Shown piece by piece: positions 39,384 through 40,206 of a stretch of 46,168 bases of DNA. The position numbers and the translations under genes are program-made. Origin of the DNA: a virus. A model generated the notes under the pieces. That model worked only from the letters and a program-made list of their open reading frames with translations, did no database searches and was not told where the DNA came from. Position 1 is the first letter of the stretch, and every line of letters begins with the position of its first letter. Where the stretch lies: the UHGV virus genome UHGV-0285609, one strand, 5' to 3'.

Positions 39384-40206
39384 AAACTTAATTGGGCATC
39401 ATTCGTGAACATTGCTTAATGGTGTGTATTATTATAATATGCTAACGGTATCAGAAAAATAAGACTCCTTATTGAAATGTTACAACAGGATAATAGGGCA
39501 TAGACCATAGACGAATAATCTGACTAAGAAACCCTAAACCAGTGATGGTGAGATAGAGGGAATACCGTGCCAAGTCTATATAGAAAGGAAGTGAACTAGA
39601 TGTTTAAAAGTATGGAAGAATTTGACCATCATTCAATAGATGAATATGGAAATGTTTTAAATGAAAAAACAGGTAATATATTAAAGCCTTATGTTGGAAG
39701 TGGAGGTTATTTGTATGTGAAGCCATGCGAAAACAATGTAACAAAGCATTTGTCGATACATAGAGCAGTAGCAAAATATTTTTGCAAAGGATATAAACCA
39801 GAATTGGTTGTTGACCATATAGATGGAAATGTAGAGAACAACTATTATAAAAATCTTAGATGGTGTGAGCAAGCAGACAATTTGAAGTATGGATATGAAA
39901 GAAGAAAAGATACGCCATTCAGAAATTACAGACCATGTAAATTATATGTTGGAAATAAATTGATAGATGAATTTCTAAGCATAACAGAAGCTGTGGACTA
40001 TGCAGAAAAACACTACAATGTTAAAAGAACAATGTTACACAAACATCTAGTTTATAAAAATGTTCGTATAGAAAGGTGTAACGACTAGCTTGTGAAGAGA
40101 GTAACAAGAGTAGGGATGGAGATAAGCACCATTCCGAAGTGCGAATGCCACAGAAGTGGAAGATATAGTCTAGCCTTGACAGTTTGGAAACGAACGACTA
40201 AGGTAG
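39384..40206 (+). mobile_element. group I intron (about 823 nt) in dnaE carrying an HNH homing endonuclease ORF
   Basis: Exon 1 ends in T (39383) and the intron ends in G (40206). Length is not a multiple of 3. Contains R-like ctgactaaga (about 39510) and S-like aagatatagtct (about 40160) core elements plus a free-standing ORF. Boundaries inferred from DnaE alignment, plus or minus a few nt. Confidence 0.65.
39600..40088 (+). CDS. HNH homing endonuclease (intron-encoded)
   Basis: LVVDHIDGNVENNYYKNLRWCEQADNLKYG matches the HNH_3 motif (DH...N...N...N). Own RBS AAAGGAAG. Confidence 0.8.
   Translation: MFKSMEEFDHHSIDEYGNVLNEKTGNILKPYVGSGGYLYVKPCENNVTKHLSIHRAVAKYFCKGYKPELVVDHIDGNVENNYYKNLRWCEQADNLKYGYERRKDTPFRNYRPCKLYVGNKLIDEFLSITEAVDYAEKHYNVKRTMLHKHLVYKNVRIERCND

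What the first reader, a model, noticed from the sequence alone, without database searches (positions are those of the whole stretch)
39384..40206. Intron 1 sits exactly before the catalytic DxD codons and carries a free-standing HNH homing endonuclease
The HNH ORF (39600-40088; DH...N...N motif) has its own RBS inside the intron. R-like (ctgactaaga) and S-like (aagatatagtct) group I core elements flank it. Insertion at the polymerase active-site codons is the classic homing-site logic, and phage polymerase genes are established intron habitats. Exact splice coordinates are inferred by alignment only.
Basis: partly seen in the sequence, partly recalled or inferred. Interest (0 to 1): 0.65.

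Follow-up and report, generated by a model that had tools for sequence, protein, structure and literature searches.

The report
SPO1-type group I intron in dnaE
The phage's DNA polymerase III alpha gene is interrupted, exactly one codon before its two catalytic aspartates, by an 823-base self-splicing-type (group I) intron that carries its own HNH homing nuclease; this is a well-supported but ordinary example of a known kind of mobile element.

Summary
Pfam's DNA_pol3_alpha profile stops at position 102 at the end of exon 1 and resumes at position 103 at 40207. The spliced protein aligns with solved Pol III alpha structures. The junction falls at P398|D399, and D399/D401 match Taq D463/D465.

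About 40 related phage loci carry an insert at the same site. A 19-sequence alignment shows a complete group I fold: 93.9% of cells are paired, against 35-42% in slid controls, and 42 of 67 pairs change on both sides. The fold has P1 with a U.G pair at the splice site, P10, the P3/P7 pseudoknot, P4-P6, P7.1/P7.2, P8, P9 with a GAAA loop, and a terminal G.

The architecture matches the Bacillus phage SPO1 DNA polymerase intron. The ORF is a homologue of I-HmuI, that intron's nuclease (PDB 1U3E, E 4.5e-15).

Near-identical phages carry an empty site, an ORF-less 342-344 nt intron, or the intron with the HNH gene.

One correction is needed.

Rfam misses the window, but it also scores the SPO1 intron below threshold. 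Verdict: a new member of a known kind, of modest interest.

The parts
38190..39383 (+). dnaE exon 1 (PHP domain and first part of the Pol III alpha palm). It ends with the Pro398 codon CCT, whose T is the U at position -1 of the 5' splice site.
   Evidence: Pfam PHP 2.5e-43 and DNA_pol3_alpha profile 2-102. The spliced protein aligns with PDB 2HPI and 2HNH.
39379..39398 (+). P1: exon UGCCU (39379-83) paired with the internal guide GGGCA (39394-98), with a U.G wobble at the splice site. The loop contains the P10 guide UUAAUU (39388-93).
   Evidence: Covariation between exon and guide: UACCU/GGGUA, UCCCU/GGGGA, CGCCU/GGGCG. P10 is 3 bp in the window and 6-7 bp in relatives, covarying AAUAUU/GAUAUU versus AACAUU/GAUGUU.
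39384..40206 (+). The whole group I intron (823 nt), phase 0, between codons P398 and D399. It ends in the terminal G (omega G) at 40206.
39400..39407 (+). P3 5' strand (CAUUCGUG). It pairs with 40140-40147 (UGCGAAUG) and forms the pseudoknot with P7. It follows P1 after a single base, so there is no P2, as in the T4 nrdD and SPO1 introns.
   Evidence: 5 of the 6 counted pairs (39400-05/40142-47) change on both sides. The two terminal wobble pairs become G-C in relatives that have GAAGCGC.
39410..39442 (+). Two hairpins between P3 and J3/4. hpA is 39410-13/39418-21 with loop GCUU. hpB is 39424-31/39435-42. They lie inside the conserved frame GUGAAC...GGUGU...GCUAAC. The exon-1 reading frame stops at TAA 39417-19, inside hpA.
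   Evidence: Both hairpins covary (3 of 4 and 5 of 8 pairs change on both sides). The same frame occurs in the SPO1 intron and in 64 IMG/VR loci.
39445..39568 (+). P4-P5 domain. P4 is ACGGUA 39445-50 with UACCGU 39563-68. P5 is CCC 39532-34 with GGG 39558-60 and carries a CCUAA...AUAG receptor-like internal loop and a GUGA-capped hairpin.
   Evidence: Covariation in P4, alpha and P5. Alpha is absent from the minimal relatives L021, L087 and L132 and from SPO1.
39569..39580 (+). P6 5' strand (GCC 39569-71) and P6a 5' strand (UCUAUA 39575-80).
   Evidence: P6 pairs with GGU 40075-77, and 2 of 3 pairs covary. P6a pairs with UAUAGA 40067-72. The corresponding helices are UUCAAAAC/GUUUUGAA in CS266P4, ACCAAAAC/GUUUUGGU in CS266P3 and 13 bp in EF5. 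ORF-less relatives have a plain P6a hairpin here.
39584..39591 (+). Shine-Dalgarno-like AAAGGAAG upstream of the HNH start codon.
   Evidence: Read directly from the sequence. No promoter-like site beyond chance was found in the intron.
39600..40088 (+). Free-standing HNH homing-endonuclease gene (162 aa) in the P6a loop. Motif residues are D72-H73, N85 and N94. The last 8 codons overlap P6a', P6', J6/7 and P7, and the stop codon UAG overlaps the last two bases of the P7 5' strand (GACUA).
   Evidence: Pfam HNH_3, PHROG HNH families and I-HmuI 1U3E at E 4.5e-15 over residues 9-96.
40075..40088 (+). True 'R' element: P6' (GGU), J6/7 (GUAAC) and the P7 5' strand (GACUA 40083-87).
   Evidence: Invariant in the family. 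Rfam aligns the homologous GUGUAACGACUA of L032 to the RF00028 consensus GUUCAaAGACUA. Near-identical to the Twort, T4 nrdD and SPO1 introns.
40089..40135 (+). P7.1 (40089-93/40104-08) and P7.2 (40113-19/40129-35, loop AGAUAAGCA). These are the hallmark extra helices of subgroup IA.
   Evidence: 5 of 5 pairs in P7.1 and 6 of 7 pairs in P7.2 change on both sides. The order is the same as in T4 nrdD and Twort.
40140..40171 (+). P3 3' strand (40140-47), P8 (CCAC 40148-51 with GUGG 40156-59), J8/7 (AAGAUA) and the P7 3' strand (UAGUC 40166-70).
40173..40206 (+). P9 (GCCUU 40173-77 with AAGGU 40200-04) with an inner hairpin capped by a GAAA tetraloop (40187-90), followed by A and the terminal G at 40206.
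   Evidence: Read from the sequence. Relatives have CCC...[UCGG GAAA CCGA]...GGG at the same place. Rfam aligns the L032 equivalent to the model's 3'-terminal hairpin (taken here to be P9).
40207..41283 (+). dnaE exon 2. It starts with GAT ATT GAT (D399-I-D401), the two catalytic aspartates.
   Evidence: Pfam profile positions 103-260 plus the finger domain. Alignment to Taq Pol III alpha has a constant offset of 64, so D399/D401 correspond to D463/D465. Exon 2 ends at 41283 by tblastn against the uninterrupted CS266P4 gene.

Best explanation
Bases 39384-40206 are a mobile group I intron of subgroup IA, built like the SPO1 DNA polymerase intron. It lies in phase 0 between the Pro398 and Asp399 codons of the phage's Pol III alpha gene.

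Splicing (inferred from the fold):
1. The intron RNA folds in the pre-mRNA. The guide GGGCA (39394-98) pairs with the exon end UGCCU, putting a U.G wobble at the 5' splice site (P1).
2. The P3/P7 pseudoknot, P4-P6, P7.1/P7.2, P8 and P9 form the catalytic core.
3. A free guanosine bound in P7 attacks after U39383.
4. The terminal G40206 then takes the guanosine site, P10 aligns exon 2, and exon 1 attacks after G40206.
5. This restores ...KTLP-DIDLDF..., the sequence holding the two catalytic aspartates.

Without splicing no active polymerase can be made. The exon-1 frame stops 12 codons into the intron. TAG directly precedes exon 2, and the next in-frame ATG lies 33 codons beyond the DxD.

Mobility (inferred from homology and population data):
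- The 162-aa HNH protein is encoded in the P6a loop and translated from its own ribosome-binding site. It is an I-HmuI homologue.
- By analogy it nicks or cuts intron-less dnaE alleles near the insertion site during mixed infection. Repair then copies in the intron and flanking exon markers (homing).
- The ORF's last 8 codons are also P6a', P6', J6/7 and P7, so ribosomes finishing the nuclease must unfold the core. Translation of the nuclease and splicing of the same transcript are therefore probably mutually exclusive.

Shown here: the exact boundaries, the fold and its covariation, the protein homologies, and the empty, ORF-less and ORF-containing alleles. Inferred: catalysis, nuclease specificity and homing.
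For: - Boundaries. Pfam profile continuity 102|103. The 906-aa spliced product aligns end to end with solved Pol III alpha structures, with E up to 1e-102.
- Fold. On a 19-sequence MAFFT alignment that was not fitted to the structure, 93.9% of 1190 cells are paired, against 34.5-42.1% with partners slid by 1-3 columns. 42 of 67 pairs change on both sides. The covariation score is 0.477 against 0.151 in shuffles, and 0 of 500 shuffles reach it.
- Guide pairings. P1 and P10 covary with the exons, which is the group I signature of one guide pairing with both exons.
- Core identity. J6/7-P7-P7.1 matches proven self-splicing introns: Twort orf142 at 94% over 35 nt, and the T4 nrdD and SPO1 layouts. 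RF00028 gives sub-threshold hits to homologues L032 (31.8 bits, E 2e-4) and L026 (28.7 bits), with R, S and the 3'-terminal hairpin aligned as proposed here.
- Nuclease. I-HmuI 1U3E at E 4.5e-15, with D-H...N...N conserved.
- Population. Phages with 99-100% identical flanking protein have no intron (L052, L053, L054, L083). Others have a 342-344 nt ORF-less intron (L006, L010, L014, L015 and more) or the 823-824 nt HNH form.
- Splice-site codon. Every intron-containing allele whose 5' junction is in hand has the Pro codon CCT. Twenty intron-less alleles have CCA 13, CCG 3, CCT 3 and CCC 1. This fits the requirement for U at position -1.
Against: - Rfam RF00028 does not report the window at gathering or at E<=10, nor its ORF-less twin L015. 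Canonical IA2 controls score 64-105 bits.
- This is mitigated by the SPO1 intron, reported as self-splicing (my knowledge; annotated 'contains intron'), which has the same layout and also scores only 25.6 bits against a threshold of 50.
- P10 is only 3 bp in the window.
- No transcript or splicing data exist for this phage.
- The nuclease's target site and activity are unknown.
- The CCT count is partly circular, because my search pattern for 5' junctions required CCT. However, no locus failed for want of it.
Confidence: 0.9

Rival explanations
1. It is a group I intron by descent, but this copy no longer splices on its own. It would depend on a host or phage RNA chaperone or on its own protein, or it would be a decaying copy that leaves the polymerase gene defective.
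For: P10 is only 3 bp in the window, against 6-7 bp in relatives. The core carries extra peripheral domains whose folding needs are unknown. One close relative (L004) has a guide mutation, GGGAA, which shows that such copies accumulate damage. No experimental data exist.
Against: Every counted helix is intact in the window (all pairs standard). The core strands are identical to those of relatives across a very diverse family. The dnaE exons are intact and highly conserved. The contigs carrying this allele are full-length phage genomes of about 50 kb.
Confidence: 0.07
2. It is not an intron. The polymerase is a split gene whose two halves are translated separately and associate, with an independent HNH gene inserted between them, as in the 'fractured gene' arrangements.
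For: GenBank annotators of Clostridium phages CS266P1-4 called the pieces as separate 'hypothetical proteins' plus a 'DNA endonuclease'. In many relatives the last three intron bases are AUG in frame with exon 2.
Against: In the window those three bases are the stop codon UAG, and the first in-frame ATG (40306) is 33 codons past the catalytic DxD. The non-coding parts show extensive compensatory base changes for a group I fold, including pairing of a guide with both exon ends. ORF-less 342-nt versions sit at the same place, and a split-gene model gives these no reason to exist. The break falls inside the palm active-site motif.
Confidence: 0.02
3. The intron splices as described, but the HNH protein is not, or is no longer, the homing nuclease for this site. 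It could be inactive, act as a splicing helper, or cut elsewhere, for example excluding competing phages.
For: Only residues 9-96 align with I-HmuI, and the C-terminal DNA-binding part does not align. ORF-less copies of the intron are common in the same population. Other nuclease families (GIY-YIG) occupy the same loop in relatives, so the RNA and the ORF have separate histories.
Against: The catalytic D-H...N...N residues are intact. The ORF is preserved at full length (160-162 aa) in relatives whose insert is only 68-70% identical in DNA. The coexistence of empty, ORF-less and ORF-containing alleles is the pattern expected of an active homing cycle.
Confidence: 0.12

Closest known systems
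Bacillus phage SPO1 (also SP82 and related phages) DNA polymerase gene 31 group I intron with the HNH nicking endonuclease I-HmuI
   Same: The RNA layout is the same. P1 is followed directly by P3, with no P2. Next comes the frame GUGAAC - short hairpin - GGUGU - long hairpin - GCUAAC - P4. The remaining landmarks are GGUGCAACGACUA (J6/7-P7), P7.1/P7.2, GAAGCGC before P3', and GAAGAUAUAGUCUAGC. The encoded protein belongs to the same family (1U3E, E 4.5e-15). Both interrupt a phage replicative DNA polymerase gene in a Firmicutes phage.
   Different: The host gene is a Pol III alpha (family C) polymerase here, whereas SPO1 gp31 is annotated 'DNA polymerase' and, from my own knowledge, is Pol I-like. 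In SPO1 the ORF lies between P3' and the S element, in the P8 loop. Here it lies in the P6a loop. The window's intron has an additional domain of about 70 nt (alpha, 39451-39523) between P4 and P5 that SPO1 lacks. Overall sequence similarity is confined to core strands.
T4 nrdD (sunY) and Staphylococcus phage Twort orf142 group IA2 introns
   Same: All have P7.1 and P7.2 between P7 and P3', with the same order of elements in the 3' half. The J6/7-P7-P7.1 sequence is near-identical: family member L031 against Twort is 94% over 35 nt, and L095 against T4 nrdD is 88% over 41 nt. T4 nrdD also lacks P2. All are phage introns in genes of DNA metabolism or structure, often carrying nuclease genes.
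   Different: T4 and Twort have no hairpins between P3 and J3/4 and no alpha domain, and RF00028 recognises them strongly (64-105 bits). The window and its ORF-less twin are not reported at all. In T4 nrdD the nuclease gene (I-TevII, GIY-YIG) lies downstream of the catalytic core (in P9.1 from my own knowledge).
Split 'DNA polymerase III alpha + HNH homing endonuclease' annotations in Enterococcus phages EF1/EF5 and Clostridium phages CS266P1-4
   Same: This is the same intron family at the same codon boundary, with the same HNH family in the same loop. It has been seen by annotators before but not described as an RNA.
   Different: Overall identity is about 70% to CS266P. To EF1/EF5, blastn aligns only a 33-nt identical core stretch. 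The CS266P phages lack the window's second dnaE intron.

Membership tests
Group I catalytic intron | 5' splice site follows a U that forms a U.G wobble with an internal guide sequence (P1) | tested here: met
   U39383 pairs with G39394. P1 is UGCCU/GGGCA. The U.G pair is invariant in 19 of 19 sequences, and two other P1 pairs covary with exon changes.
Group I catalytic intron | Intron ends in a G (omega G), and the same guide region pairs with the 3' exon (P10) | tested here: met
   G40206 is the last base in the window, and G is the last base in all ~40 homologues. P10 is 3 bp in the window and 6-7 bp in relatives, with one compensatory change: AAUAUU/GAUAUU versus AACAUU/GAUGUU.
Group I catalytic intron | Conserved core: P3/P7 pseudoknot, P4-P6 stack and P8, supported by compensatory changes | tested here: met
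   93.9% of cells are paired against 35-42% in slid controls. P3 5/6, P4 3/6, P5 3/3, P6 2/3 and P8 4/4 pairs change on both sides. P7 is invariant.
Group I catalytic intron | Consensus R and S sequences (J6/7-P7 and J8/7-P7') | tested here: met
   GUGUAACGACUA at 40075-86 and AAGAUAUAGUCU at 40160-71. The homologous strands of L032 are aligned by Rfam to GUUCAaAGACUA and GAAGAUAUAGUC. The same strands occur in Twort, T4 and SPO1.
Group I catalytic intron | Score at or above the Rfam RF00028 gathering threshold (50 bits) | tested here: not met
   There is no hit for the window at gathering or at E<=10, nor for the ORF-less twin L015. Homologues reach 31.8 and 28.7 bits. As controls, T4 nrdD scores 105 bits and Twort 64-101 bits, but the SPO1 intron scores only 25.6 bits. 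The threshold therefore fails for this whole architectural type.
Group I catalytic intron | Guanosine-dependent self-splicing that yields ligated exons | not testable with these tools
   This needs in vitro transcription with GTP labelling, or RT-PCR from infected cells.
Subgroup IA (SPO1 / T4 nrdD / Twort type) | Extra helices P7.1 and P7.2 between P7 and the 3' strand of P3 (the Michel and Westhof criterion, from my own knowledge) | tested here: met
   P7.1 is 40089-93/40104-08 and P7.2 is 40113-19/40129-35. Both covary strongly and lie in the same order as in T4 nrdD and Twort.
Subgroup IA (SPO1 / T4 nrdD / Twort type) | SPO1-type 5' domain: no P2, and GUGAAC-hairpin-GGUGU-hairpin-GCUAAC between P3 and P4 | tested here: met
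   Window 39405-39448. The frame is identical in SPO1 and in 64 IMG/VR loci, including introns in nrdD and other genes. Both hairpins covary.
HNH homing endonuclease, I-HmuI family | HNH catalytic motif (D-H ... N ... N) and sequence homology to I-HmuI | tested here: met
   Pfam HNH_3 31.5 bits against a cut-off of 24.8. 1U3E at E 4.5e-15 over residues 9-96, with D72-H73 and N94 aligned to the I-HmuI D-H and N. The C-terminal 65 residues do not align.
HNH homing endonuclease, I-HmuI family | Site-specific nicking or cutting next to the intron insertion site, driving gene conversion | not testable with these tools
   Only indirect support is available: intron-less, ORF-less and ORF-containing alleles coexist in near-identical phages, with synonymous differences clustered next to the site.
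Intein (considered and rejected) | An in-frame insertion translated with the host protein, without stop codons | tested here: not met
   The exon-1 frame stops at 39417-19, and UAG at 40204-06 precedes exon 2.
Group II intron (considered and rejected) | Six-domain RNA with domain V, usually with a reverse transcriptase/maturase ORF | tested here: not met
   There are no group II Rfam hits in the region. The ORF is an HNH nuclease of 162 aa with no reverse-transcriptase domain. At 823 nt including the ORF, the insert is too short.

The most novel reading that the evidence does not exclude
The window belongs to a large lineage of SPO1-type group I introns that, as far as I could find, is undescribed as an RNA and is dedicated to one codon boundary of phage Pol III alpha genes.

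The lineage has several unusual properties:
- It is invisible to the standard Rfam model.
- It has acquired a new peripheral RNA domain (alpha, between P4 and P5).
- It repeatedly swaps nuclease cassettes. HNH and GIY-YIG genes occupy the P6a loop, and a LAGLIDADG gene sits elsewhere.
- In one gut virome it is caught in all three stages of the homing cycle.

Because the HNH ORF ends inside P6', J6/7 and P7, nuclease translation and polymerase mRNA splicing could be mechanistically coupled. That coupling would link expression of the replicative polymerase to the state of the parasite.
Probability: 0.3. Interest if true: 0.45.

Novelty: new member of a known kind. Interest (0 to 1): 0.3.

Why it matters
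For annotation, three ORFs (two 'hypothetical proteins' and an 'endonuclease') are really one 906-aa replicative polymerase plus two introns. The GenBank records of the related CS266P phages carry the same split annotation for intron 1.

For tools, the standard Rfam group I model misses this whole SPO1-like architectural type, so such introns are probably under-counted in phage and virome surveys.

For biology, near-identical phages from one sample (IMG/VR 3300045988) carry the empty site, the ORF-less intron and the HNH-carrying intron. More distant relatives carry GIY-YIG genes in the same loop. This gives a ready natural system for studying the gain, loss and replacement cycle of homing-endonuclease genes at an essential active-site codon.

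None of this changes what is known about how such elements work.

Tried and rejected
- Rfam scans found nothing: the whole window at gathering, the region at E<=10 and the ORF-less twin L015. I did not take this as evidence against an intron, because the SPO1 control also fails the threshold while the T4 and Twort controls pass.
It covaries with 39451-55 as a local helix, and it is CUUUCUAAGA in EF5.
- I looked for a canonical P2 between P1 and P3, and for a P3 5' strand directly before J3/4. Neither exists. I first thought the two hairpins between P3 and J3/4 were an unprecedented topology, and withdrew that after finding the same frame in the SPO1 intron and no P2 in T4 nrdD.
- An exact-junction DNA search for intron-less alleles returned only distant genes that share the LPDIDLDF codons. 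The protein-based search then found the true near-identical intron-less alleles.
- The scan of bacterial and archaeal genomes for the core motif found nothing, so the family appears to be confined to phage and virome sequence.
- A promoter and terminator scan inside the intron gave nothing above chance.
- Literature searches found no paper describing a group I intron at this dnaE site. They found only generic remarks on polymerase genes split by HNH genes (PMC6409932). PMC421625 on I-HmuI homing could not be read.
- I did not build a covariance model. The full alignment, at 442 columns, exceeds the tool's 400-column limit, and the comparative evidence was already sufficient.
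Full report
**1. What is in the sequence**

The window encodes a phage Pol III alpha (DnaE) gene in three pieces.
- The ORF from 38190 matches Pfam PHP and positions 2-102 of the DNA_pol3_alpha profile, ending at residue 398.
- Translation starting at 40207 matches positions 103-260 of the same profile and then the finger domain.
- The break is therefore exact to the codon: ...K-T-L-P(39381-83) | D-I-D-L-D-F(40207...).
- The exon-1 frame runs on for 12 codons and stops at TAA 39417-19. The three bases before exon 2 are TAG. The first in-frame ATG of exon 2 is at 40306.
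- Between the exons lies ORF 39600-40088 (162 aa), preceded by AAAGGAAG at 39584-91.

**2. The host protein and the insertion site**

Joining 38190-39383, 40207-41283 and 41629-42075 gives a 906-aa protein. It aligns over its whole length with solved Pol III alpha structures: 2HPI at E 1e-102, and 4JOM and 2HNH over residues 4-884.

Across the junction the alignment to Taq is gap-free: rfmrkekktlPDIDlDFerdrrq against rflnpervsmPDIDtDFsdrerd, with a constant offset of 64. D399 and D401 therefore correspond to Taq D463 and D465. From my own knowledge, these are two of the three catalytic aspartates in the Taq structure papers, equivalent to E. coli D401 and D403. The statement that the intron 'sits exactly before the catalytic DxD codons' is correct.

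**3. The insert recurs at the same site**

- blastn finds the same insert, about 70% identical, in Clostridium phages CS266P1-4, and a 33-nt identical core stretch in Enterococcus phages EF1 and EF5.
- In all of these the dnaE gene is split at the same codon boundary around an HNH gene.
- Pattern scans with conserved core strings brought in about 35 more loci from IMG/VR and metagenomes and none from bacterial genomes.
- In every locus where both junctions are held, the insert follows ...CCU and ends in G before GAU(A/G)U(N)GA(Y).
- Several loci nearly identical to the window carry a 342-344 nt version without any ORF. There a simple hairpin replaces the 490-nt loop.
- Minimal versions of 262-285 nt also exist (L021, L087).

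**4. The RNA fold**

I trimmed the ORF loops to 8 nt on each side and aligned 19 diverse members with MAFFT, with no structural input (alignment A1). I then tested a structure read from the window.

Whole-structure results:

| Measure | Observed | Control |
|---|---|---|
| Cells forming standard pairs (of 1190) | 93.9% | 75.1% shuffled; 34.5-42.1% with 3' partners slid 1-3 columns |
| Pairs with changes on both sides | 42 of 67 | 30.0 mean in shuffles |
| Covariation score | 0.477 | 0.151 in shuffles |
| Shuffles reaching the observed value | 0 of 500 on every measure | |

The elements, in window coordinates, are:
- P1: exon UGCCU 39379-83 with guide GGGCA 39394-98.
- P10: guide 39388-93 with exon 2 at 40207-12.
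- P3: 39400-07 with 40140-47.
- hpA: 39410-13 with 39418-21.
- hpB: 39424-31 with 39435-42.
- J3/4: UA.
- P4: 39445-50 with 39563-68.
- Alpha, a peripheral domain closed by 39451-55 with 39519-23.
- P5: 39532-34 with 39558-60.
- P6: 39569-71 with 40075-77.
- P6a: 39575-80 with 40067-72, closing the ORF loop.
- J6/7: GUAAC.
- P7: GACUA 40083-87 with UAGUC 40166-70.
- P7.1: 40089-93 with 40104-08.
- P7.2: 40113-19 with 40129-35.
- P8: 40148-51 with 40156-59.
- J8/7: AAGAUA.
- P9: 40173-77 with 40200-04, with an inner GAAA-capped hairpin.
- The terminal G at 40206.

Three points are especially diagnostic.
- The guide covaries with the 5' exon: UGCCU/GGGCA, UACCU/GGGUA, UCCCU/GGGGA and CGCCU/GGGCG.
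- The bases just upstream of the guide covary with the 3' exon: AAUAUU with GAUAUU, and AACAUU with GAUGUU.
- The splice-site U.G pair is invariant.

This is the group I arrangement, in which one guide holds both exons. In the window itself P10 is weak, at 3 bp.

**5.

'ctgactaaga' (39520-29) is the 3' strand of helix alpha plus a conserved CUAAGA joiner. In EF5 it reads CUUUCUAAGA, and its partner changes from UCAG to AAAG. It is not P7.

The true R is GUGUAACGACUAG at 40075-88. Rfam's own alignment of the homologue L032 places GUGUAACGACUA on the consensus GUUCAaAGACUA, GAAGAUAUAGUC on the S consensus, and the GAAA-capped hairpin on the model's 3'-terminal hairpin, which I take to be P9.

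The ORF is therefore not between R and S. It is looped out of P6a, and its last eight codons (...R-I-E-R-C-N-D-stop) are also P6a', P6', J6/7 and the start of P7.

**6. Which kind of group I intron**

P7.1 and P7.2 lie between P7 and P3'. From my own knowledge, this is the Michel-Westhof hallmark of subgroup IA.
- Family members share near-identical J6/7-P7-P7.1 sequence with the Twort orf142 introns (94% over 35 nt) and with T4 nrdD (88% over 41 nt).
- The 3' half of T4 nrdD has the same order of elements, and its P1 is followed directly by P3 with no P2.
- The two hairpins between P3 and J3/4, framed by GUGAAC...GGUGU...GCUAAC, first looked unprecedented to me. The same frame occurs in 64 IMG/VR loci, including introns in nrdD and other genes.
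- Decisively, the frame also occurs in the SPO1 DNA polymerase intron: CCCAGUGAAC-CUAUAAAUAUAG-GGUGU-...-GCUAACAGGGG, with P3 as CCCAGUG/CGCUGGG.

The window's intron is therefore of the SPO1 type. It differs in three ways. It has the extra alpha domain between P4 and P5, which is absent from SPO1 and from the minimal relatives. Its ORF is in P6a rather than P8. Its host gene is a different polymerase family.

**7. Why Rfam is silent**

| Sequence scanned | RF00028 result (threshold 50 bits) |
|---|---|
| T4 nrdD | 105 bits |
| Three Twort introns | 64-101 bits |
| SPO1 intron (from my own knowledge, the classic self-splicing I-HmuI host) | 25.6 bits, partial |
| Homologues L032, L026 | 31.8 and 28.7 bits |
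| Window and ORF-less twin L015 | not reported at E<=10 |

I record this membership test as failed. The SPO1 control shows that the failure belongs to the architectural type and not to this copy.

**8. The protein**

The ORF matches Pfam HNH_3, PHROG HNH families and I-HmuI (1U3E, E 4.5e-15, residues 9-96 on 11-98, no gaps). D72-H73 and N94 align to the I-HmuI D-H and N. The C-terminal 65 residues do not align.

From my own knowledge, I-HmuI is a site-specific nicking enzyme whose nick starts gene conversion. The title of Landthaler et al. 2004, seen in a reference list, says as much. I could not open that paper.

**9. Evidence for mobility**

A protein query spanning the junction found near-identical phages (99-100% amino-acid identity) with an uninterrupted gene: L052, L053, L054 and L083. 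It also found about 16 more such genes at 74-82% identity. Fourteen or more loci start matching exactly at D399.

In one virome sample the same phage type therefore occurs with an empty site, with an ORF-less intron and with the HNH-carrying intron. This is the pattern expected of the homing cycle.

Other relatives carry GIY-YIG genes in the same loop (L031, L036), a different HNH gene (L033), or a LAGLIDADG gene upstream of the core (L029).

The Pro398 codon is CCT in every intron-containing allele in hand. In 20 intron-less alleles it is CCA 13, CCG 3, CCT 3 and CCC 1. This fits the need for U at position -1 and co-conversion of flanking markers. As a caveat, my junction-finding pattern required CCT, although no locus failed for that reason.

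**10. Alternatives**

- A split gene with separately translated halves is contradicted by the UAG before exon 2, the lack of a start codon before the DxD, the ORF-less 342-nt inserts, and above all the compensatory changes in non-coding RNA.
- An intein is excluded by the stop codons.
- A group II intron is excluded by size, by ORF type and by the absence of any Rfam hit.
- Two possibilities cannot be excluded. This copy may need helpers to splice, or the HNH protein may be inactive or act elsewhere.

**11. Verdict**

It is a new member of a known kind: a SPO1-type subgroup IA intron with an I-HmuI-family nuclease, here in a Pol III alpha gene at the catalytic DxD.

Interest is modest. The useful by-products are a corrected annotation, the observation that Rfam misses this architectural type, and a natural population that shows every stage of the homing cycle.

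Noticed in passing
window 41284-41628: A second interruption of dnaE (345 nt, no ORF) between ...F-N-K-G-H and S-T-G-Y... It follows a U and ends in G. It contains group I-like P4/Q and R strings (UGCUGG...AAUCAGCAGUCAAGCC...AUUCAGAGA) and gets a weak partial RF00028 hit (16.2 bits, E 0.076). It is absent from the CS266P phages, whose gene is continuous there. It is probably a second, unrelated group I intron.
   Followed up: partly
window 8535-8606 and 8692-8763: Two tRNA genes on the + strand (Rfam tRNA, 61 and 64 bits).
   Followed up: no
L052-L054, L083 versus L006/L010/L014/L015 versus window/L005/L007/L013 (IMG/VR sample 3300045988): Near-identical phages from one sample carry the dnaE site empty, with a 342-344 nt ORF-less intron, or with the 823-824 nt HNH intron. 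The empty alleles differ at synonymous positions right next to the site: CCA or CCG instead of CCT, and GATATC instead of GATATT in three of the four.
   Followed up: partly
L031 4662-5727, L036 865-1766, L033, L029/L030: The same intron family hosts different nuclease genes. GIY-YIG genes occupy the P6a loop in L031 and L036. A different HNH gene with NUMOD4 is in L033. A LAGLIDADG gene lies upstream of the GUGAAC motif in L029/L030, where the 5' junction is not in the held DNA.
   Followed up: partly
L001 3833-3835, L002, L003, L019, L035, L036, L041 (3' ends of the introns): In many relatives the last three intron bases are AUG in frame with exon 2. GenBank annotators used it as the start of the second 'hypothetical protein'. 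In the window the same position is the stop codon UAG, and in L016-L018 it is UUG. Whether the AUG allows some translation of exon 2 from unspliced RNA is unknown.
   Followed up: no
L004 (IMG/VR 3300045988_055792), about 330-345: A close relative of the window's intron has the guide GGGAA instead of GGGCA. This breaks one P1 pair, while the HNH ORF is intact.
   Followed up: no
L024 about 3800-3876 and L026 about 100-214: In these more distant dnaE genes the sequence just upstream of the intron site contains ...VHN|S-like strings and a long insertion that look like an intein in the same gene. L026 and L032 also carry a second, canonical group I intron downstream (RF00028 at 97.5 and 30.4 bits).
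   Followed up: no
L092, L095 (nrdD-like exons), L100, L124, L093-type loci: The SPO1-type 5' frame (GUGAAC-hairpin-GGUGU-hairpin-GCUAAC) marks introns in other phage genes too. These include an anaerobic ribonucleotide reductase gene and divergent polymerase genes split at the homologous ...G|DIDID site. Some carry nuclease ORFs after P7'.
   Followed up: partly
L146 (SPO1 gene 31 intron) 480-557: The SPO1 intron, reported as self-splicing (from my own knowledge), scores only 25.6 bits against Rfam RF00028, whose threshold is 50. Rfam-based surveys will therefore miss SPO1-type introns.
   Followed up: yes
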